NCBI RefSeq assembly: GCF_004364155.1
Contig: NZ_SOAZ01000007.1
Location: 65,167 to 129,166 of the forward strand
DNA length: 64,000 nt
Reading direction: 5' to 3'
Origin: Fonticella tunisiensis
GTDB taxonomy: Bacteria > Bacillota > Clostridia > Clostridiales > Caloramatoraceae
This document shows positions 20,192-38,625 of the stretch, piece by piece. Within the stretch, counting starts at the first letter, position 1; every line of letters begins with the position of its first letter. A program made the translations under genes and the position numbers. Below the pieces are notes generated by a model. The model searched no databases and was not told where the DNA came from. It saw only the letters and a list, made by a program, of their open reading frames with translations.

Positions 20192-22147
20192 CTACTTTTC
20201 ATTTTCCCTTCTTTTTAACATTACAAATCTAATAAATATATTGGCAAATGCTATAAATAGCGTACCAACTAAAAGTCCTACAATGTATGCCCACAGATTT
20301 TCAACCAATGGCCATCCCCATACTGCGGGAAGCGGAAACCACTGAACTGCCCCTAATGAAACTGCTGTAATTGATCCAAGTATTGCACCAAGTATATTTA
20401 TTGGTATTGTTATAAGCGGGTTTCTAAGCATAAATGGTATAGCACCTTCGCTTATAGCAATAAGTCCAAGTAATATGGATGTTCTACCTGCTATTCTCAA
20501 GTCTTCATCAAATACATGGCGTCCAACTACATATTTATCTAAAACAGTTGCTAAACCTAATCCTATTGGTGGTATAACTATTGAAAGTACACGTGGAGTT
20601 AACGGGAATATTTTATCTGCAGCAAGTCCTATTGCAATGGCACCTGCCGCCTTATTTATTGGACCTCCAAGGTCAAATGCTGTTGCTGCTGCAATTATCG
20701 CTGATAAACCAAGTGTTCCTGCAGCTTGTGCTTGCTTTATTAAATTTCTGAGTGTTAAGTTTAATCCTCCAAATACAGGGTCAACAATATAGAAATTTAA
20801 TAGGAATATTGAAAGTACACTTATTCCTGGTATTATGAGCATCGGTTTCATTGCGCTTAAGTTCTTTGAAAGCTTTATCCTTTCATTCAGGAATCTTGAA
20901 ATATATCCTGCTGCAAGCCCTAATATAAGTGCTCCAAAGAATCCTGATGGTATACCATCCTTAACTCCCCAGAAGGTGAAATGAAGTCCTGCTGCAAATG
21001 CACCTCCGATAAGCCCTGAAACAATACCTACACGGTCAGCTATAGCATAAGCAACATAGGCTGAGAAAATTGGATACATGAATTTAAAGATCATTCCACC
21101 AAAGGCATCAAGAAAGTGTAATATCTTTATAAGTTCATTCGGGCTGGCCGCATACTTTGCATCTCCAATTTCCTTTACTATTCCAAATGCCATTGCTCCA
21201 AGCTTACCAATACCTATCATAAGACCGGCGGCTACTATTACTGGAATCATATAGGATATGCCTGTAAGAACTGCCTGGGACATTTCTGAAAGAATTCCGC
21301 CCTTTTTCGTACCACTTTCTGCTATAACTTCTTCCTTCTCCTCAACAATTCCATCGGGATTAGTTAGAACCTTATTTATCAGTGCCTTTGCATTCTTCAG
21401 AGGTTCTGCAACCTTTGTTCTTACATAGGGTTTTCCATTGAATCTTTCTACTTTTTTTGGTGCTATGTCAGTTGCAAAGATAACTCCATCTGCCTTTTCT
21501 ATTAATTCCTTTGTATGCGCATTTTCTATTCCATTTGCTCCCTGTTTTTCAACAATCACTCTAACTCCCATTTCCTTTCCTGCCTTTTCTAAGGCTTCAG
21601 CTGCCATATAAGTATGGGCTATACCTGCTGCACAGGCTGTAATTGCAAGAACAGTTTTAGAGTACTTAAGCCCTTCTTCCTTTCTTTCGTTATTATAATC
21701 AAGGGCTTCTATAAATTCCTTTGCATTTTTGGCTTTCCTTAATCTGTTTACAAAATCCTTATTCATTAATGCTGTGGAAAGCTCTGCAAGAAGCTTTAGA
21801 TGTGTTGACCCTGCCTCTTCCTCTGGAATTGCAAGCAGGAATACAAGCTCTACTTGATTATTTTGGCTTATACTTTCCCATGCTGATATTTTATTCTTCA
21901 AACGTGCAACTCCAAAAGCAGCTCTTTTTACAGCCTTTGATTTACCATGGGGAATTGCAAGTCCATCCTCAAGGCCTGTAGGTGAATGCTTTTCCCTCTC
22001 CATAACAGCCTTTAAAAATTCTTCCTTTGATGTAATGAAGTTTTCTTTATAAAGAGCATGTACAATTTTTTCAATAACTTCTTCCTTTGAAGAAGCTTCT
22101 AGATCTAAAAGAATGAGTTCTTCCTTTGTCATTCTCTGAAGATTCAT
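20192..22147 (-). CDS. mngA: PTS fructose-family EIIA-EIIB-EIIC permease, MngA-like
   Basis: 651 aa. EIIA His site LAIPHGKS, EIIB Cys site ITACAAGIAHT and a C-terminal EIIC membrane domain. Sits immediately upstream of mngB. Confidence 0.7.
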   Translation of the reverse strand: MNLQRMTKEELILLDLEASSKEEVIEKIVHALYKENFITSKEEFLKAVMEREKHSPTGLEDGLAIPHGKSKAVKRAAFGVARLKNKISAWESISQNNQVELVFLLAIPEEEAGSTHLKLLAELSTALMNKDFVNRLRKAKNAKEFIEALDYNNERKEEGLKYSKTVLAITACAAGIAHTYMAAEALEKAGKEMGVRVIVEKQGANGIENAHTKELIEKADGVIFATDIAPKKVERFNGKPYVRTKVAEPLKNAKALINKVLTNPDGIVEEKEEVIAESGTKKGGILSEMSQAVLTGISYMIPVIVAAGLMIGIGKLGAMAFGIVKEIGDAKYAASPNELIKILHFLDAFGGMIFKFMYPIFSAYVAYAIADRVGIVSGLIGGAFAAGLHFTFWGVKDGIPSGFFGALILGLAAGYISRFLNERIKLSKNLSAMKPMLIIPGISVLSIFLLNFYIVDPVFGGLNLTLRNLIKQAQAAGTLGLSAIIAAATAFDLGGPINKAAGAIAIGLAADKIFPLTPRVLSIVIPPIGLGLATVLDKYVVGRHVFDEDLRIAGRTSILLGLIAISEGAIPFMLRNPLITIPINILGAILGSITAVSLGAVQWFPLPAVWGWPLVENLWAYIVGLLVGTLFIAFANIFIRFVMLKRRENEK

Positions 22148-22319: not shown

Positions 22320-23078
22320 ATGAGTAAACTATTAAATCGTTTTGCTAATGACCTTCCTAAACTTAGCCATGCAGAAAAACATGTATTTTATTATATTGAA
22401 AGCAATATTGAAGAGGCTAAAAAGCAATCTCTTACAGAGATGGCTGAAGTAAATAATGTAAGCACTACTACTATCGTCCGCATGTGCAATAAATTGGGAC
22501 TTTCCGGTTTTTCTGAATTAAAGTATATATTAAAAGATATAGAACAAAATAATGTTTCTTCTGAAAGTAGTTTGTTAGACAACATAAAAAATAATATAAA
22601 CCTCACTCTATCAAACTTAAACATCGAAACTCTACATTCTCTTATAAGACTTATGATAAGCTCTAAAAAGATTGTAGTTGTAGCCGTAGGGCTTTCAAAA
22701 ACTATAGGAGAATATTTTTCCAAACTTTTAATGCAGATAAACAAAAACACACTATACGTTTATGAATCCCACATAATAGACCTTCTTCCAGGGATGATGA
22801 ATTGGGATGATCTGGTTATCTTTATATCCAACAGTGGAGAAACAAAGACATTACTTTCAATAGCTGAAAAGCTAAGCTATCGAAACTATAAAACTGCCGC
22901 AATTGTGAATGCTGCTGACTCTACACTTTCAAGGCATGTTACATTGTCCATAAATGCACATTCCAACAAAAGCGAATATAGAGGATACGACATTACTCCA
23001 AGATCTACACTGCTTTTACTTATAGATATAATTTTCGGTATGTTCTTAGAGGCTAAAAACAAAAATAAACAAAAATAA
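22320..23078 (+). CDS. RpiR/MurR-family transcriptional regulator (HTH_6 plus SIS domain)
   Basis: 252 aa. N-terminal HTH and C-terminal SIS sugar-phosphate-binding domain. Divergent from mngA. Confidence 0.7.
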   Translation: MSKLLNRFANDLPKLSHAEKHVFYYIESNIEEAKKQSLTEMAEVNNVSTTTIVRMCNKLGLSGFSELKYILKDIEQNNVSSESSLLDNIKNNINLTLSNLNIETLHSLIRLMISSKKIVVVAVGLSKTIGEYFSKLLMQINKNTLYVYESHIIDLLPGMMNWDDLVIFISNSGETKTLLSIAEKLSYRNYKTAAIVNAADSTLSRHVTLSINAHSNKSEYRGYDITPRSTLLLLIDIIFGMFLEAKNKNKQK

Positions 23079-29009: not shown

Positions 29010-30624
<1,615 letters not shown>

Positions 30625-30658
30625 AAAAATTTATTCGGAATTTTTAAAATATTATGTT

Positions 30659-31222
30659 TTATAAATCCCATAAATTCGTGCTGCTTGTTGATACCGCAAT
30701 GGCACCCATAGAAAGGCACTCAAGTACATCCTTTTTAGTTTTTATAAGTCCACCTGCTATTATAGGAAGTGAAACCCTGTCTTCAATTGAATTAATTATT
30801 CTGCTTGCAATACCGGGCAATACTTCTATTGCATCGGGCATATGGTCCTTCATATTTTTAATTCCCGTATCCAGCGAGAGGGAGTCTAATATAAATATTC
30901 TTTGAATTACTATAAGTCCAAGGTTTCTAGCATGCCTTACATTGCTGACCTTTGTTGTTATAATTCCATTCGGATTAGCCTCTTTTTTTATGTACTCAAG
31001 ACCAAGTGCATCACCCTTTAACCCCTCTATCATATCGATGTGGATGAATATTATTTTACCTGCTTCCCTGAGCCTGTTACATATGCCCTTTATATTAAGT
31101 AAATTCCCATAGAGAACGAAAACTATTTTAGGCTTTCCACTGCATGCATCTTCCAGTTGAGCATCGTTCCTTATTGCTGCAATAACAGGATTTTCAACTA
31201 AAATTTCCTCTAAATCCTGCAT
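30659..31222 (-). CDS. glpP: Glycerol-3-phosphate-responsive antiterminator GlpP
   Basis: 187 aa. Collinear with B. subtilis GlpP (IHIDMIEGL, GIITTK, LDSLSLDTG, PGI...IAGGLI). Confidence 0.8.
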   Translation of the reverse strand: MQDLEEILVENPVIAAIRNDAQLEDACSGKPKIVFVLYGNLLNIKGICNRLREAGKIIFIHIDMIEGLKGDALGLEYIKKEANPNGIITTKVSNVRHARNLGLIVIQRIFILDSLSLDTGIKNMKDHMPDAIEVLPGIASRIINSIEDRVSLPIIAGGLIKTKKDVLECLSMGAIAVSTSSTNLWDL

Positions 31223-31413
31223 AAATCCCCCACCTTTATTTTTTTCTTATATTATTTACTACTTTTTCTAGATAAATATAACATTAAAGTTATAGCTTTA
31301 CAATATATCTGGATAAAATATTCAATATTGTTCATGTGATTCCATAGCCATTAAATCAATTTTAATAACATCTTCCATATTCTCAATGAAAGCATCGAGT
31401 TCTATATTACAGT

Positions 31414-31448
31414 AAAAACCCGGCTCTACTTTAGGAGCCGGGTTTTTA
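31414..31448. terminator. Bidirectional terminator
   Basis: aaaaacccggctctactttaggagccgggttttt. Confidence 0.65.
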
Positions 31449-31471
31449 TATATTTATCAATAGGGGGGTAT

Positions 31472-32263
31472 TTATGCAAGAAGTAACCTATCGCTTAAAT
31501 CATCAGGATGTGTCTTTTCAAATAATTTCAAAAGGCTTTCTTTTGTCAGTCCCTTCTTTTTGTCTCCTTTGATATCAAGTATTATACTTCCCCTGTGCAT
31601 CATAATAATCCTGTTTCCAAGGTCTATTGCATGGTGAAGGTTATGGGTTACCATAAGGGTAGTTATCTTTCTACTTTGAACTATATCCTGAGTTATCTCT
31701 ATTATTCTCTCAGATGTTGCAGGGTCAAGGGCAGCTGTGTGTTCATCCAAAAGAAGTATTTCGGGATCTGACATTGTAGCCATTATAAGGGATAGTGCCT
31801 GCCTTTGCCCTCCGGACAAAAGCCCAACCTTCACATTGAGCTTATCCTCAAGTCCAAGATTAAGCTGAGATAAAATTTCCCTAAAGTGGGATATATTCCT
31901 TTTTGAAACCCCAAAGGTTAGCCCAAACCTCTTTCCCTTGTTAAAGGCCATTGACAGATTCTCAAGAATGGTCATCGAAGGTGAAGTCCCCATTGCAGGG
32001 TTTTGGAATACTCTTCCTATAAATCTTGAACGTTTAAACTCAGGAAGATTTGATATTTCCTTTCCATTTAAAACTATTGAGCCTTCGTCCACCTCAATTG
32101 CTCCTGATATAGCGTTTAAAAGGGTTGACTTTCCTGCTCCATTGCTGCCAATTACTGTTATAAAATCACCTTCATCAATGTTTAGGGACAAACCATTTAT
32201 AACAACGTTTTCGTTAACCGTACCCCTGTTATAAACCTTACGCAGATTTTGCATTTGCAGCAT
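31472..32263 (-). CDS. ABC transporter ATP-binding protein
   Basis: Walker A GSNGAGKST, signature LSGGQRQ and Walker B LLLDE. Confidence 0.8.
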   Translation of the reverse strand: MLQMQNLRKVYNRGTVNENVVINGLSLNIDEGDFITVIGSNGAGKSTLLNAISGAIEVDEGSIVLNGKEISNLPEFKRSRFIGRVFQNPAMGTSPSMTILENLSMAFNKGKRFGLTFGVSKRNISHFREILSQLNLGLEDKLNVKVGLLSGGQRQALSLIMATMSDPEILLLDEHTAALDPATSERIIEITQDIVQSRKITTLMVTHNLHHAIDLGNRIIMMHRGSIILDIKGDKKKGLTKESLLKLFEKTHPDDLSDRLLLA

Positions 32264-33155
32264 TTGAATCCCCTCCCCTTGATATTACACGCTTTAAAGT
32301 AGTCCCTATCCTCTTATTGCTTAATCCAAGTGCAATGACAACTATTATAGATGTTATAAGCTTCAAATCCGTTGGAGGGAATCCAAGCTCTAAAGCAATA
32401 GAAGTGCTTGCCTTATACATAATAGCACCTGCAAGAACCATTGTAGAAGGCGAAATCAATGAAAATCTTTTTAAAACGCTCTCTCCAAATATAATGGATG
32501 CAAGTCCCATTACAATAATTCCGCTTCCCATTCCAACGTCTGAAAACCTCTGATACTGTGCCATTATTGATCCTGAAAGGGACACAAGTCCATTAGAAAG
32601 TGCAAGGCCAAGTATTTTAATTAACCCTATATCTATTCCAAGGGAGACTACAATGCCCGGGTTGTCACCAGTTGCTCTTAAAACAAATCCAATCTTTGTT
32701 TTAAGAAACAAATCCAATATTAGCTTTACACCTATTGCAATAACTAAAACTATAACTATTTTAGGGCTGCTGCCTGTAAATATAGTTTCTTTGTTAAAAA
32801 AGGGAAGGTTTGCCTTTCCCATTATCCTCAAGTTGATGGAATAGAGCCCAATCATCACTAAAATACCTGAAAGCAGGTTTGTTATTCCAAGTTTTACGTG
32901 TAAAAATCCTGTTACAGCACCTGCCAGTATCCCTGCAAGTAATGATAGTGTGCAGGCTGTTATTGGATTTATGCCCTTTACAAGGGAGGCTGCCGTAACA
33001 GCTGCTCCAAGGGCAAAAGTGCCGTCCACCGATAGATCTGGAAAATCCAGTGTTCTATAGGTGATATACACCCCAAGTGCCATTATTCCAAAAATAAACC
33101 CCTGCTCCAGCACTACACCTATAAGTCCTGACATGCTACTTTCCTCCTTTAACAA
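32238..33155 (-). CDS. ABC transporter permease (partner of the PF04392-type binding protein)
   Basis: 305 aa, about 8-10 TM segments. Overlaps both neighbouring genes. Confidence 0.7.
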   Translation of the reverse strand: MLKEESSMSGLIGVVLEQGFIFGIMALGVYITYRTLDFPDLSVDGTFALGAAVTAASLVKGINPITACTLSLLAGILAGAVTGFLHVKLGITNLLSGILVMIGLYSINLRIMGKANLPFFNKETIFTGSSPKIVIVLVIAIGVKLILDLFLKTKIGFVLRATGDNPGIVVSLGIDIGLIKILGLALSNGLVSLSGSIMAQYQRFSDVGMGSGIIVMGLASIIFGESVLKRFSLISPSTMVLAGAIMYKASTSIALELGFPPTDLKLITSIIVVIALGLSNKRIGTTLKRVISRGGDSNAANAKSA

Positions 33156-34146
33156 GCTCCGCCTTATCCTTTAATTCCTGTGGAATTGTAATTCCAAGCT
33201 TATCAGCAGTTTCAGTATTGATTATTAGCTTTGTATCCTTAAGGGTAGTTACCGGCATATCCTGAGGTCTCTTGCCGTTTATTACTTCTACTGCTGCAAG
33301 ACCTGTCTGGAATCCAAGGTTATAATAGTCAATACCTTCTGTAGCAAGAGCTCCTGAATTTACCATGCCTGCTTCTGCCGCTATTACGGGGATTTTAGCC
33401 TCAACACATTTACTTGATATCAATGCCATTGATGATGCAATAACGTTGTCAGTGGGAGCGTATAAAACATCTACTTTCTTTAAAAGAGCCTCAAGCGCCT
33501 GAGAAATATCATTAACGTTTGTAATTCCTGAGGTTACTATCTCAAATCCAAAATCAGGTGCTATCTTCTTCGCCTGTTCCGCCTGAACCTCCGAATTACT
33601 TTCACTTGTATTGTATAATATACCTACCTTTTTTGCGTTTGGAACAAGCTTTTTAATGAGTTCAAACTGTTTCTCAATCGGGGCTGCATCGCTCGTACCT
33701 GTGACATTCGTCTCTGACTTTTCCATAGATTTTACAAGCCCTGCAGATACCGGATCTGTAACAGCTGTTATTAATATTGGAATGTCCTTTGTAGCGTTAA
33801 AAGCAGCCTGTGCAGCTGGAGTTGCAATTGCAAGTATCATATCCTTTTTCTCTGAAACAAAATTTTGAGCTATGGTCTGGGAGGTTGGAATGTCTCCCTG
33901 AGCGTTTTGAAAATCTATCTCTATATTATTGCCATCCTTAAAGCCCTTTGATTTAAGTGCGTCGATAAAACCTTTCCTTGCTGAATCCAATGCAGGGTGT
34001 TCCACAAGCTGTGAGATACCAATTTTGACGATTTTATCTTGTGTTGAATTTGATGAACCAGATTTAACTTTACTGCAGCTCACCATAAGAAATGAAGCTA
34101 AAAGAACAATAAGAGTTGTGATTTTGAAAATGTTTTTACCTACCAT
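33136..34146 (-). CDS. ABC transporter substrate-binding lipoprotein, ABC_sub_bind (PF04392-like) family
   Basis: Signal peptide with LMVSCS lipobox. The family is known from T-box-regulated Trp-type importers in Firmicutes. Confidence 0.65.
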   Translation of the reverse strand: MVGKNIFKITTLIVLLASFLMVSCSKVKSGSSNSTQDKIVKIGISQLVEHPALDSARKGFIDALKSKGFKDGNNIEIDFQNAQGDIPTSQTIAQNFVSEKKDMILAIATPAAQAAFNATKDIPILITAVTDPVSAGLVKSMEKSETNVTGTSDAAPIEKQFELIKKLVPNAKKVGILYNTSESNSEVQAEQAKKIAPDFGFEIVTSGITNVNDISQALEALLKKVDVLYAPTDNVIASSMALISSKCVEAKIPVIAAEAGMVNSGALATEGIDYYNLGFQTGLAAVEVINGKRPQDMPVTTLKDTKLIINTETADKLGITIPQELKDKAELVKGGK

Positions 34147-34368
34147 ACTACCATCCTCCTAAAAATTTTATATAATAAAAAAACCCTCCAGAGGAGAGTT
34201 TATAAACATATGGATCAATATCCCATGAGGGGAGAGCTATCTCCTTCTATACTGCTAAACTACCATACTACATTTGAACCTATACTACAAAACTACACCA
34301 ATACCTTCCAAAGTGTTATTTAAATATAATTATATAACCTTTATGTTCAAAATTCAAGTGTATTTTTA
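34147..34368 (-). promoter_or_regulatory. Leader with a cluster of 8 UAG triplets and an intrinsic terminator (terminator at 34176-34203)
   Basis: Minus-strand RNA reads TAGttttgTAGtaTAGgttcaaatgTAGtatggTAGttTAGcagtaTAGaaggagaTAG. Then the hairpin ccctccagaggagag... followed by TTTTTTT directly upstream of the binding-protein RBS. Confidence 0.55.
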
Positions 34369-34785
34369 TTAATTTTCCGGAATTGATCTATGGCCAAGCC
34401 CTATAACAACCTCGTTTAAGTGAAGAAGGCCAATACTCATAAAAATACATACGCTTATATGTTCTCCACACCTTGCTATACCTATTTTGCCTCCAACGTT
34501 AAGACCATTTGCCTTTGCAGCTACCTGCATTATTGCCTCCCTGGCGGCACCTGCAACAGCGCCGTCGTGTACATGGCACTCCTTTGTAATTCCACTTCTT
34601 CTTGAGGCCACAAGAGCTCTTTCGATTATCTTTGGTATTGAAGAGATGAGATCCCCTCCAAAATCAACTGCAGCAGTCAAGATTCCCTTTTCCCTAAAAT
34701 CCTCAATTAGCCTTTGTTCATCTTCCCTTGAGGATATAGCCATTTTAATCGACGCCTTTGCGATATCAATGCTATCCCACTTCAT
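34369..34785 (-). CDS. hutP: HutP-family RNA-binding antiterminator
   Basis: About 138 aa. Collinear with B. subtilis HutP (glycine-rich, HxH...AxxAxxE pattern). Confidence 0.6.
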   Translation of the reverse strand: MKWDSIDIAKASIKMAISSREDEQRLIEDFREKGILTAAVDFGGDLISSIPKIIERALVASRRSGITKECHVHDGAVAGAAREAIMQVAAKANGLNVGGKIGIARCGEHISVCIFMSIGLLHLNEVVIGLGHRSIPEN

Positions 34786-34938
34786 TTTTCCACCTCCGTT
34801 TTTATTCAACAGTTTAATTATACAATATTTCCATTAAACATTTTGCATTTTTGGTTAATAAATTATTTCAAACAATAACAAAAGAGCCCGAAGGCTCTTT
34901 TAAAACAATTACTATTGATATATGAAATTATGAGTTGA

Positions 34939-38399: not shown

Positions 38400-38625
38400 T
38401 CACCTCCGAATAAAAAATAGCCCTGAAGTCTTAGCTTCAGGGCTATTTTTGTACAAGATATTATTCTGCTGTATAAATATAAAAAACATACAATTTCTCG
38501 TACACCTTCTTCCATCCAGACTTTAACTGTCGGCCCCGGAGTTTCACCGGATCATGCCTTTCGGCTCGCGGGCTTTACCGCCGGTGGGGACTTACACCCC
38601 GCCCTGAAGGTAATATTAATTTTTA
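38400..38625 (-). ncRNA. FMN riboswitch (RFN element) with terminator expression platform
   Basis: Minus strand reads GGGCGGGGTGTAAGTCCCCACCGGCGGTAAAGCCCGCGAGCC...CCGGTGAAACTCCGGGGCCGACAGTTAAAGTCTGGATGGAAGAAGG. Followed by the terminator hairpin agccctgaagctaagacttcagggct plus a U-run (38412-38447). Confidence 0.9.

What the first reader, a model, noticed from the sequence alone, without database searches (positions are those of the whole stretch)
31472..34809. HutP-like antiterminator with UAG-repeat terminator leader controlling an ABC importer instead of hut genes
- A HutP-family gene is followed by a 220-nt leader holding 8 UAG triplets within about 65 nt, spaced 5-10 nt apart.
- A strong intrinsic terminator (stem ccctccagaggagag followed by U7) sits directly before a three-gene ABC importer.
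- The importer is a PF04392-type lipoprotein binding protein, a permease and an ATPase.
- HutP is known to bind UAG repeats and antiterminate the histidine-utilisation operon.
- No hutH/U/I genes are present, so the RNA switch appears rewired to an uptake system.
- The uptake system may be for histidine or a related ligand; the binding-protein family is otherwise linked to T-box/Trp control.
Basis: partly seen in the sequence, partly recalled or inferred. Interest (0 to 1): 0.65.

Follow-up and report, generated by a model that had tools for sequence, protein, structure and literature searches.

The report
HutP-family RNA switch on tyrosine-type importer
A small RNA-binding protein related to the Bacillus histidine regulator HutP sits upstream of a probable tyrosine ABC importer whose leader and ribosome-binding site carry conserved UAG repeats. 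The arrangement recurs in dozens of Clostridia and I found no description of it, so it looks like an unstudied amino-acid-sensing RNA control system.

Summary
On the minus strand a HutP-family gene (34785-34369) is followed by a 222-nt leader with 8 UAGs in 59 nt, an intrinsic terminator with U7, and an ABC importer operon (PF04392 binding protein, permease, ATPase).

The arrangement is not a one-off. Of the 80 closest relatives in other species, 55 have the same gene order. Their leaders share UAG repeats (preferred spacer 5 nt), a terminator with covarying stem, and a near-invariant start region, GGAGGAUGGUAGU-AUG-GUAG.

- **Substrate.** The importer is probably for tyrosine, not histidine. 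Its closest solved relative is C. difficile CD0873, and both specificity residues are kept.
- **Regulator.** It has the HutP fold at about 21% identity, but the positions I recall as histidine/Mg2+ ligands are not conserved.

Direction of control is unresolved. I favour a TRAP-like repressor (about 0.45) over HutP-like antitermination (about 0.3). I found no paper or Rfam family describing this. I rate it a new variant of a known kind.

The parts
34369..34785 (-). HutP-family RNA-binding regulator gene (138 aa, start ATG 34785; the mechanical ORF call starts at TTG 34809)
   Evidence: Pfam PF09021 156 bits, E 7e-46, full length. AlphaFold2 model pLDDT 91.3; best PDB fold match is HutP 1VEA_B, TM 0.79, 21% identity. 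100% identical to the 'HutP family protein' of Fonticella tunisiensis.
34329..34357 (-). Promoter-like TTGAAT-17-TATAAT between the hutP stop and the UAG cluster (putative own promoter of the importer operon)
   Evidence: Consensus scan, 10 of 12 matches. Many related leaders have TTGACA/TATAAT-like elements at the same place by eye. Function is inferred, not shown.
34237..34295 (-). Cluster of 8 UAG triplets (spacers 5, 2, 9, 5, 2, 5, 7 nt): presumed binding platform for the HutP-family protein
   Evidence: P about 0.001. 53 of 55 related leaders have a cluster of at least 3 UAGs, and 52 of 55 have UAG-N5-UAG. Pooled 5-nt spacer: 132 observed against 10 expected.
34231..34244 (-). GGAGA (34244-34240) between the last two UAGs, followed by UAG and CUCUCC (34236-34231). 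GGAGA is complementary to the terminator 5' arm (candidate antiterminator strand); in this window it is predicted to pair locally with the adjacent CUCUCC.
   Evidence: Sequence; fold. GGAGAUA follows the last phased UAG in most relatives. Own-arm preference test p = 0.036. Function is inferred.
34207..34227 (-). Small hairpin (P2) followed by GUUUAU. Relatives have a variable hairpin plus a conserved UUUAUUU tract here (possible pause site or first terminator).
   Evidence: Fold; alignment consensus GGUUUAUUUnGUUAUGC; hairpins listed.
34177..34201 (-). Intrinsic terminator AAACUCUCC-UCU-GGAGGGUUU with a U7 run (34183-34177)
   Evidence: 50 of 55 related leaders have a terminator, mostly AACUCUCC...GGAGAGUU. 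The stem is 92% paired across 47 loci with 3-6 pair types per column.
34140..34161 (-). Translation initiation region UAGGAGGAUGGUAGUAUGGUAG: SD GGAGG 34159-34155, AUG 34146-34144, UAGs at 34161, 34150 and 34142. Presumed second binding site overlapping SD and start codon.
   Evidence: Positions -13 to +7 are 87-100% conserved in 53 loci, while the hutP start region in the same loci is at background. 49 of 55 have both flanking UAGs. UAG-UAUGG-UAG is also a recurrent unit in many leader clusters.
33136..34146 (-). Lipoprotein-like substrate-binding protein (PF04392), predicted tyrosine-binding
   Evidence: Pfam 311 bits. PDB 6HNI (CD0873) 352 bits. The Glu263 and Tyr equivalents are kept. NCBIfam TrpX 351.7 bits, below the 390 cutoff.
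32238..33134 (-). ABC permease (BPD_transp_2)
   Evidence: Pfam 83.5 bits; syntenic in 50+ loci.
31472..32263 (-). ABC ATPase
   Evidence: Pfam ABC_tran 100.9 bits; syntenic.
31412..31449 (-). Operon-end hairpin terminator (16-bp stem, U/A runs on both sides)
   Evidence: reported on the + strand; the palindrome also reads as a terminator on the - strand after the ATPase stop.

Best explanation
The window (Fonticella tunisiensis) carries a HutP-family single-stranded-RNA-binding regulator and its cis target, the leader and start region of a CD0873-type, probably tyrosine-specific, ABC importer.

**Proposed mechanism**
1. The protein is presumably a hexamer that is switched on by a small ligand. 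The ligand is most plausibly tyrosine and not L-histidine/Mg2+.
2. It binds phased UAG triplets (preferred spacer 5 nt) in two places: the cluster 34295-34237 in the leader, and the UAGs that overlap the Shine-Dalgarno sequence and start codon (34161-34140).
3. Binding at the start region blocks ribosome loading.
4. Binding at the cluster occupies the UAG-flanked GGAGA segment, which could otherwise pair with the terminator 5' arm CUCUCC. The terminator 34201-34177 then forms and transcription stops.
5. Net logic: when the amino acid is plentiful, the importer is shut off at both transcription and translation. This is the logic of B. subtilis TRAP, carried out by a HutP-fold protein.

**Shown:** family membership, fold, conserved synteny, conserved UAG arrays, the terminator with covariation, and the conserved UAG-bearing start region.
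**Inferred:** RNA binding at these sites, the ligand, the hexamer, and the direction of control.
For: - **Regulator.** Pfam HutP 156 bits; HutP fold TM 0.79.
- **Synteny.** 55 of the 80 best relatives (of 544 confirmed hits among GTDB species genomes) have hutP-like, then binding protein, permease and ATPase.
- **Leaders.** 855 UAGs against 464 expected. The 5-nt spacer occurs 132 times against 10 expected; tandem UAGUAG 92 against 11.
- **Start region.** GGAGGAUGGUAGU-AUG-GUAG is 87-100% conserved from -13 to +7 in 53 loci whose binding proteins are only 50-69% identical to the window's. The start region of the better-conserved hutP-like gene is at background. UAGs at -4..-2 and +5..+7 leave no room for a 30S subunit if a protein is bound.
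- **Terminator-less loci.** Two loci (L030, L061) have a cluster and start-region UAGs but no terminator, so control there can only be translational.
- **GGAGA placement.** By eye from the listing, the GGAGA-type segment is flanked by UAGs on both sides in about 19 of 49 loci, including the window. Protein binding and GGAGA pairing should therefore exclude each other.
- **Co-variation.** This segment changes together with variant terminator arms: AGAAC/GUUCU in L045, L047 and L051; GGAAA/UUCC in L037; GCGAG/CUCGC in L029; GGGAG in L026. Permutation p = 0.036.
- **Substrate.** The binding protein is closest to tyrosine-binding CD0873, with specificity residues kept in 53 of 55 linked loci.
- **Physiological analogy.** A homologous importer in Streptococcus suis is starvation-induced through a T-box (PMC9382623).
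- **Ligand site.** Positions I recall as HutP His/Mg2+ ligands are not conserved.
Against: - The terminator is the thermodynamic default. It is in the minimum-energy fold in 43 of 49 loci, and forming it gains a further -5.8 kcal/mol on average over any upstream pairing of its 5' arm.
- The candidate antiterminator is only 5-7 bp. It is not recovered by an unbiased column-pair scan.
- In the window itself GGAGA is predicted to pair with an adjacent CUCUCC instead.
- The nascent 5' arm pairs upstream only slightly more than in shuffles (72% against 60%).
- By eye from the terminator sequences, about 21 of 51 terminators carry a UAG in the loop or 3' arm, as in the B. subtilis hut terminator. 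This fits antitermination.
- The only characterised family member is an activator.
- No binding, ligand or expression data exist for this clade.
Confidence: 0.45

Rival explanations
1. Classical HutP-type antitermination. The ligand-bound hexamer binds the UAG cluster with one face (site I) and NAG triplets in the terminator loop or 3' arm with the other (site II). This holds the 3' arm away from the 5' arm, possibly helped by the weak GGAGA:UCUCC pairing, so RNA polymerase reads into the importer genes. The importer would then be induced by its substrate, as hutM is in the B. subtilis hut operon.
For: - Family precedent.
- The terminator is the default fold in 43 of 49 loci, with only a weak alternative pairing, as is typical of protein-dependent antitermination.
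- Terminator arm sequence and orientation are conserved (CUCUCC / GGAGAG), while the neighbouring P2 hairpin drifts freely.
- By eye, about 21 of 51 terminators have a UAG in the loop or at the start of the 3' arm, 4-5 nt before the U run, like UAGCUCC-U5 in B. subtilis.
- Short leaders in Haloplasmataceae and Bacilli MAGs (L034, L050, L067) have 3-4 UAGs, about 30 nt of linker, then CUCC-UAG-CUAU-UAG-GAG-U6, and no internal promoter. This closely resembles the hut layout.
Against: - The near-invariant UAG pair bracketing the start codon would make the same protein block translation of the transcript it had just rescued.
- In the window and in about 60% of loci the terminator has no UAG.
- The last cluster UAG lies 15-107 nt upstream of the terminator, with a hairpin in between. 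In B. subtilis the third UAG abuts the stem and the linker is 17 nt.
- In about 19 loci GGAGA is sandwiched between two UAGs, which is counterproductive if GGAGA must pair while the protein is bound.
- L030 and L061 lack a terminator but keep the cluster and start-region UAGs.
Confidence: 0.3
2. Translation-only control. The protein represses translation by wrapping the leader cluster and the start region on its two faces. The terminator is a constitutive, partly leaky attenuator (or responds to another factor) that only sets the basal level.
For: - The start region is the most conserved element.
- In the terminator-less loci L030 and L061 the cluster lies about 30-35 nt from the start region, similar to the HutP two-site geometry (linker of 12-17 nt or more).
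- Statistical support for any antiterminator is weak.
Against: - 50 of 55 loci keep a strong terminator between the cluster and the start region.
- The terminator arm sequence is conserved and co-varies with the cluster-end segment. A passive terminator would not need that.
Confidence: 0.12
3. Coincidence. The UAG richness reflects AT-rich intergenic composition, the hairpin is just the hutP gene's terminator, and the HutP-like gene regulates something elsewhere.
For: - The leader is AT-rich; total UAG count in the whole leader (10) is not extreme under dinucleotide shuffling (P = 0.15).
- 26 of 80 relatives lack the importer downstream.
Against: - Local clustering has P about 0.001.
- The 5-nt phasing is enriched 13-fold over 55 leaders.
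- The cluster and terminator stay with the importer when hutP is 1.6-3.5 kb away (L016, L054, L071).
- The start-region UAGs are conserved.
- Several importer-less loci carry transposase, integrase or restriction-gene insertions at that spot.
Confidence: 0.02

Closest known systems
B. subtilis HutP and the hutP-hutH terminator (L-His/Mg2+-activated hexameric antiterminator; PDB 1VEA, 1WMQ, 3BOY)
   Same: - Same Pfam family and fold.
- The regulator gene lies immediately upstream of its target.
- UAG-repeat RNA lies next to an intrinsic terminator in the intergenic leader.
- Some relatives carry a UAG in the terminator loop or 3' arm, as in B. subtilis.
   Different: - Only 20-24% identity; phmmer against the PDB misses HutP entirely.
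- Positions I recall as His/Mg2+ ligands are not conserved.
- The preferred UAG spacer is 5 nt, against 4.
- Arrays often hold 8-13 UAGs, more than one hexamer can bind.
- The cluster lies 15-107 nt from the terminator rather than abutting it.
- Extra conserved UAGs sit on the start codon.
- The target is a tyrosine-type ABC importer, with no hut genes.
- The importer leader appears to have its own promoter.
B. subtilis TRAP (mtrB) attenuation of the trp leader and translational repression of trpG, trpP and ycbK
   Same: - Works alike in the favoured model. An amino-acid-activated oligomer binds phased (G/U)AG triplets in single-stranded RNA. It prevents an antiterminator so that a terminator forms, and it sits on start regions of target genes, including an amino-acid transporter.
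- PMC2425495 itself notes the HutP/TRAP parallel in triplet recognition.
   Different: - The protein fold is unrelated (HutP fold, not the TRAP ring).
- Spacers are 5 nt, against 2-3 in TRAP (TRAP figure from established knowledge).
- The antiterminator here is weak and statistically marginal.
- The direction of control is untested.
C. difficile CD0873-CD0875 tyrosine ABC importer (PDB 6HNI; PMC6816091)
   Same: - The binding protein is 56% identical.
- The tyrosine-specifying Glu263 and the Tyr that excludes tryptophan are both kept.
- Same permease and ATPase families.
   Different: - In C. difficile the gene order is permease-ATPase-binding protein.
- No PF09021 gene is nearby.
- The leader is different: a small ORF and a weak trpB-motif match.
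T-box-controlled TrpXYZ importers of streptococci (PF04392 family)
   Same: - Homologous transporter. NCBIfam TrpX scores 351.7 bits.
- An RNA-level leader controls an aromatic amino-acid importer (PMC9382623).
   Different: - The TrpX score is below the equivalog cutoff of 390.
- The specificity residues are tyrosine-type.
- No T-box or other Rfam family is found in this leader or in 14 related leaders.
- The sensor is a protein rather than a tRNA.

Membership tests
HutP family (PF09021) | Sequence match to the family HMM over the full length | tested here: met
   156.1 bits against a cutoff of 25, residues 16-141 on profile 1-128/128. No NCBIfam model matches.
HutP family (PF09021) | HutP fold (four-stranded antiparallel sheet flanked by helices) | tested here: met
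   AF2 model pLDDT 91.3. The Foldseek top 11 PDB hits are all HutP, TM 0.70-0.79, E down to 2.5e-9.
HutP family (PF09021) | Homohexamer with two RNA-binding faces | not testable with these tools
   Only a monomer was modelled.
HutP sensu stricto (hut operon antiterminator) | L-histidine and Mg2+ binding site (His73, His77, His138, Arg88, Arg98, Glu81; roles recalled from Kumarevel et al. 2005, not re-read here) | tested here: not met
   MAFFT and hhalign both give H73 to G, H77 to G, R88 to A, R98 to L, H138 to E/N; only E81 is kept. My B. subtilis sequence was verified identical to 1VEA_A.
HutP sensu stricto (hut operon antiterminator) | RNA target UAG-N4-UAG-N4-UAG, with two sites flanking or inside the terminator stem and a linker of about 17 nt | tested here: not met
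   UAG repeats are present, but the modal spacer is 5 nt and 4 nt is minor. The window's terminator has no UAG. The cluster lies about 36 nt upstream, with a hairpin in between. About 40% of relatives do have a UAG in the terminator.
HutP sensu stricto (hut operon antiterminator) | Controls hutHUIGM | tested here: not met
   The downstream genes are an ABC importer. No HAL or urocanase signature occurs in the window. The rest of the genome was not examined.
HutP sensu stricto (hut operon antiterminator) | Ligand-dependent antitermination (activator) | not testable with these tools
   Sequence evidence is split. Needs in vitro transcription or genetics.
TRAP-type attenuation system | TRAP (MtrB) protein ring | tested here: not met
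   The regulator has the HutP fold. The resemblance is functional only.
TRAP-type attenuation system | Triplet repeats overlap the 5' strand of an antiterminator that competes with the terminator | tested here: inconclusive
   A UAG-flanked GGAGA is complementary to the terminator 5' arm, and own-arm preference has p = 0.036. But the terminator dominates folding in 43 of 49 loci, and the pairing is not found by a column scan.
TRAP-type attenuation system | Triplet repeats overlapping SD or start codon of target genes | tested here: met
   UAGs at -15, -4 and +5 relative to AUG. 49 of 55 loci have both flanking UAGs, and -13..+7 is 87-100% conserved. Binding itself was not tested.
CD0873-type tyrosine ABC binding protein (PF04392) | Glu263 (hydrogen bond to the tyrosine hydroxyl) and the Tyr that sterically excludes tryptophan | tested here: met
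   IPVIAAE and GIDYY in the window protein. The E/Y pair occurs in 53 of 55 linked binding proteins; the Phe binder has A/Y and the Trp binder A/Q. Residue roles are from PMC6816091. Ligand binding was not tested.
Rfam cis-regulatory families | Covariance-model match in the leader | tested here: not met
   Nothing in 34147-34368 at E up to 1. Nothing in the hutP-importer leaders of 14 related loci at gathering score.

The most novel reading that the evidence does not exclude
A large clostridial branch of the HutP family is a tyrosine-sensing, UAG-repeat-binding repressor. It shuts off a tyrosine ABC importer by promoting leader termination and by occluding the start codon. That would be a HutP-fold protein that has converged on TRAP logic, with a different ligand, a different repeat spacing (5 nt) and the opposite sign to the only characterised family member.
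Probability: 0.4. Interest if true: 0.78.

Novelty: new variant of a known kind. Interest (0 to 1): 0.62.

Why it matters
- **Family scope.** HutP is treated in the literature I could search, including a 2025 review, as a Bacillus-specific, histidine-specific antiterminator of one operon. These data indicate that a large, highly conserved branch (72-88% identity across the top 120 database hits; 5008 proteins at E of 1e-5 or better) is wired to a different target, probably senses a different amino acid, and uses a different repeat spacing with an extra site on the start codon.
- **Testable predictions.** This gives a candidate protein sensor for tyrosine and a second natural triplet-repeat attenuation system to compare with TRAP and HutP.
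- **Annotation.** It corrects the common label 'hut operon positive regulatory protein', which is probably wrong for these genes.
- **Physiology.** It suggests how Clostridia control uptake of an amino acid that feeds Stickland fermentation and p-cresol-type metabolism.

Tried and rejected
1. **Rfam.** A scan of the leader and of 14 related loci found no family in the leaders.
2. **PDB by sequence.** phmmer with the regulator gave only a spurious PPR-repeat hit. Fold search was needed to see HutP.
3. **Whole-leader folding.** It is no more stable than shuffles (z -0.16 to +1.0), so there is no riboswitch-like structure.
4. **RNAalifold.** On a MAFFT alignment of 26 leaders it recovered only 3 terminator pairs, because the 3' arms were misaligned.
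5. **Antiterminator tests.** Per-locus duplex z-scores were weak (mean -0.7). The own-arm against other-arm test was marginal (p = 0.036). Constrained folding favoured the terminator. A block-anchored column-pair scan found only the terminator helix.
6. **Pre-terminator motif.** I tested whether the conserved UUUAUUUGGUUAUGC motif pairs with the UAG cluster. There was no signal (mean z -0.25).
7. **C. difficile CD0873 locus.** It has no HutP-like gene nearby and a different leader, so it gives no link to published C. difficile data.
8. **Literature.** Searches on HutP combined with Clostridium, difficile, tyrosine, family and homolog terms found nothing on this clade. A search for papers stating the HutP ligand residues also failed, so those roles are from memory.
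9. **Other UAG clusters in the window.** The 6-UAG cluster near 20580 lies inside a coding region. Three weaker phased hits (23177, 8974, 3719) were not followed up beyond one ORF check.

Full report
**1. What is in the window**

All relevant genes lie on the minus strand. In order of transcription:
- ribH, followed by its terminator (34902-34879).
- A 138-aa gene (ATG 34785 to stop 34369).
- A 222-nt leader (34368-34147).
- A PF04392 substrate-binding protein (34146-33136).
- A BPD_transp_2 permease (33134-32238).
- An ABC ATPase (32263-31472).
- A strong hairpin terminator (31412-31449).
- glpP.

The small protein matches Pfam HutP over its whole length (156 bits, E 7e-46). It is 100% identical to the 'HutP family protein' of Fonticella tunisiensis.

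The leader contains the following elements:
- A promoter-like TTGAAT-17-TATAAT (34357-34329).
- Eight UAGs within 59 nt (34295-34237; spacers 5, 2, 9, 5, 2, 5, 7).
- A GGAGA flanked by the last two UAGs.
- A small hairpin followed by GUUUAU.
- The terminator AAACUCUCC-UCU-GGAGGGUUU with U7 (34201-34177).
- The start region UAGGAGGAUGGUAGUAUGGUAG (34161-34140), which holds three more UAGs overlapping the SD and bracketing the AUG.

**2. Is it more than chance?**

The cluster is the densest UAG cluster on either strand of the window (8; the next best is 6, inside a gene). At least 8 UAGs in 60 nt is reached in 0.1% of dinucleotide-preserving shuffles of the leader. The leader as a whole is no more structured than shuffles. 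That fits a single-stranded protein-binding platform plus a terminator.

**3. Related loci**

A scan of one genome per GTDB species found 544 confirmed relatives, and the best 80 were fetched.
- **Synteny.** In 55 of these the same three importer genes follow the hutP-like gene on the same strand. The organisms include many Clostridium species, Hathewaya, Alkaliphilus, Tepidibacter, Lutispora, Anaerophilus, Marinisporobacter, and Haloplasmataceae and Bacilli MAGs.
- **Element counts.** Of the 55 leaders, 53 have a cluster of at least 3 UAGs, 52 have UAG-N5-UAG, 50 have a hairpin plus U-run terminator, and 49 have both start-codon-flanking UAGs.
- **UAG statistics.** Pooled, the leaders hold 855 UAGs against 464 expected. 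The spacer distribution peaks sharply at 5 nt (132 against 10 expected). Secondary peaks are at 0, 2, 6 and 8 nt, and 4 nt is minor (31). G is preferred just before UAG.
- **Consensus.** An alignment of 26 leaders gives GUAGUAUGGUAGUUUGGUAGGAGAUAU ... variable hairpin ... GGUUUAUUUnGUUAUGC..AAAACUCUCC-loop-GGGGAGUUUUUUU.
- **Linkage.** When hutP and the importer are separated by other genes (L016, L054, L071), the cluster and terminator stay directly upstream of the importer. They are therefore the importer's leader, not the hutP terminator.
- **Terminator stem.** It is 92% paired across 47 loci, with 3-6 pair types per column.
- **Known RNA families.** No Rfam family matches this leader or 14 related ones.

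**4. The start region**

Positions -13 to +7 of the binding-protein gene (GGAGGAUGGUAGU AUG GUAG) are 87-100% conserved in 53 loci, although the encoded proteins are only 50-69% identical to the window's. In the same loci the start region of the much better conserved hutP-like gene carries 0.2-0.9 bits per position. The conserved spacer holds a UAG at -4..-2, and codons 2-3 hold another at +5..+7. In 21 loci a third UAG is fused to the SD. UAG-UAUGG-UAG is also a recurrent unit in many leader clusters. I infer that the same factor binds both places, and that binding at the start region must occlude the ribosome.

**5. The regulator**

- **Fold.** An AlphaFold2 model built on 20 homologues (pLDDT 91.3) matches HutP structures first (1VEA_B, TM 0.79, 21% identity). 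Sequence search of the PDB does not find HutP.
- **Ligand positions.** I verified that my recalled B. subtilis sequence is identical to 1VEA_A and aligned it by MAFFT and hhalign. His73, His77, Arg88, Arg98 and His138 correspond to Gly, Gly, Ala, Leu and Glu/Asn in the clostridial clade. Only Glu81 is kept.
- **Caveat.** The roles of these residues (Mg2+ triad and L-His contacts) are from my memory of Kumarevel et al. 2005. I could not retrieve a paper stating them.
- **Clade conservation.** The clade has its own invariant polar set: H71, H73, D74, R82, E83, H109, C113, H122, H132, R133.
- **Conclusion.** This is a HutP-family member, but very probably not an L-His/Mg2+ sensor.

**6. The importer**

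- **Closest structure.** The binding protein's best solved relative is C. difficile CD0873 (6HNI, 352 bits). CD0873 binds tyrosine specifically (Kd 94 uM; PMC6816091).
- **Specificity residues.** That paper attributes specificity to Glu263, which hydrogen-bonds the tyrosine hydroxyl and is Ala in the Phe and Trp binders. It also cites a Tyr that excludes tryptophan, which is Gln in the Trp binder. Both are kept in the window protein and in 53 of 55 HutP-linked binding proteins.
- **TrpX.** NCBIfam TrpX scores below its cutoff (351.7 against 390).
- **Conclusion.** The importer is most likely for tyrosine, and the regulator's ligand is most plausibly tyrosine as well (inference).

**7. Direction of control**

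Evidence for repression (TRAP-like):
- The start-codon UAG pair (section 4).
- Two loci (L030, L061) have a cluster and start-region UAGs but no terminator.
- GGAGA, which is complementary to the terminator 5' arm, is overlapped or sandwiched by UAGs in about 19 of 49 loci, by eye.
- This segment changes together with variant terminator arms in several lineages. Own-arm preference has permutation p = 0.036.
- A homologous importer in S. suis is starvation-induced through a T-box.

Evidence for antitermination (HutP-like):
- The terminator is the default fold in 43 of 49 loci and beats any upstream pairing by 5.8 kcal/mol on average.
- The putative antiterminator is only 5-7 bp. An unbiased column scan does not recover it, and it is not predicted in the window itself.
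- Terminator arm sequence and orientation are conserved.
- By eye, about 21 of 51 terminators have a UAG in the loop or 3' arm. The native B. subtilis terminator, reconstructed from the paper's oligonucleotides, has the same feature: UAG-AUCU-UAG-ACGA-UAG|GGGGCUAUGC...CAG...CAGCAUAGCUCC-U5.
- The short leaders of L034, L050 and L067 look very hut-like.

I weigh the start-region evidence most heavily. It is the most conserved element and has only one straightforward reading. I put the TRAP-like repressor at about 0.45, HutP-like antitermination at about 0.30, translation-only control at about 0.12, and chance at about 0.02.

**8. Comparison and novelty**

Membership of the HutP family is met by HMM and fold. 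The features that define HutP in the strict sense are not met: the His/Mg2+ site, N4 spacing, sites in or abutting the terminator, and a hut target. Functionally the system may work like TRAP, but with an unrelated fold.

Full-text searches found no description of clostridial HutP-like regulators, of UAG leaders on these importers, or of any link between HutP and tyrosine. A 2025 review lists HutP only for Bacillus hut operons. This is limited to the open-access library I could search. I therefore rate it a new variant of a known kind.

**9. Limits**

- Everything about RNA binding, the ligand, oligomeric state and direction of control is inference from sequence.
- The 80 loci are the closest relatives only, so more distant family members were not sampled.
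- Related sequences are not independent, so the conservation counts overstate the number of independent observations.
- The rest of the Fonticella genome, including possible hut genes and other UAG targets, was not available.

Noticed in passing
window 38500-38615 (-): An FMN riboswitch (RF00050, 113 bits) lies upstream of the ribD-ribE-ribBA-ribH operon, which ends just before the hutP-like gene. Together with glpP downstream, three different RNA-level control systems sit side by side within about 10 kb.
   Followed up: no
window 30588-30629, between glpP (30659-31222, -) and glpK (29010-30560, -): A perfect palindrome gives symmetric spurious miRNA hits on both strands. It sits in the glpP-glpK intergenic leader and may be the GlpP-controlled terminator of glpFK/glpD. 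PF04309 G3P_antiterm scores 217 bits for the upstream gene.
   Followed up: no
L081 4800-5260 (C. difficile, upstream of the permease of the CD0873 operon): The leader of the C. difficile tyrosine importer has no nearby HutP-like gene. It has a short ORF (MKTLLNKQVRFFSSQFS) with a good SD, four UAGs within 22 nt at the ORF end, two hairpin plus U-run elements, and a sub-threshold match to the Rfam trpB motif (RF04312, 36 bits against GA 59). It may be a different attenuator on the same transporter family.
   Followed up: partly
L048, L052, L057, L060, L062, L068, L069, L072, L078 (Anaerovoracaceae / Family XIII): In these relatives the hutP-like gene is followed directly by a ComEC-type gene of about 800 aa, with no UAG cluster. 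Pfam Competence plus Lactamase_B was confirmed for L057 only; the others were judged by ORF size and N-terminal similarity. The regulator may act in trans on a target elsewhere.
   Followed up: partly
L055 585-710 and L074 4777-5089: Here the hutP-like gene is followed by other transporter types: a sodium:solute symporter (L055, with two UAGs and a CUGUUGGAGGGUUUUUUU-type terminator) and a Na+/H+ antiporter-family protein (L074, with scattered UAGs). The regulator may be attached to different uptake systems.
   Followed up: partly
L023, L033, L056 (C. hydrogeniformans, C. cadaveris, C. tetani): Where the importer is missing, the position downstream of hutP-like holds a GmrSD restriction gene, a phage-type integrase (with what looks by eye like a tRNA-like sequence just upstream; not checked with the tRNA tool) or a DDE transposase. 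This suggests secondary loss or displacement of the importer by mobile DNA.
   Followed up: partly
Related leaders, e.g. L005 5565-5600, L029 5575-5600, L013 5705-5730; window 34207-34227: Between the UAG cluster and the CUCUCC terminator most leaders have a second, freely varying hairpin followed by a conserved UUUAUUU(G) tract. It looks like a tandem weak terminator or pause site. In the L024, L031, L049 and L063 group this is the only terminator.
   Followed up: partly
L010, L036, L054, L030, L007 leaders: Some leaders carry 10-13 UAGs in one array, or 3-4 separate clusters up to 300 nt upstream of the terminator. That is more than a single hexamer (6 sites) could bind, so several hexamers or sliding registers may be involved.
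   Followed up: no
window 23177, 8974, 3719 (-): Three other places match UAG-N(4-6)-UAG-N(4-6)-UAG on the minus strand. No ORF of 80 aa or more covers 23177 on either strand (the only one listed nearby, 22320-23078 on the + strand, ends about 100 nt short of it). The other two were not examined.
   Followed up: partly
L026 472-687, L071 1239-1453, L065 8678-8949: T-box leaders occur within a few kb of the hutP-like/importer module in three relatives but not in its leader. Their specifier codons and target genes were not examined.
   Followed up: no
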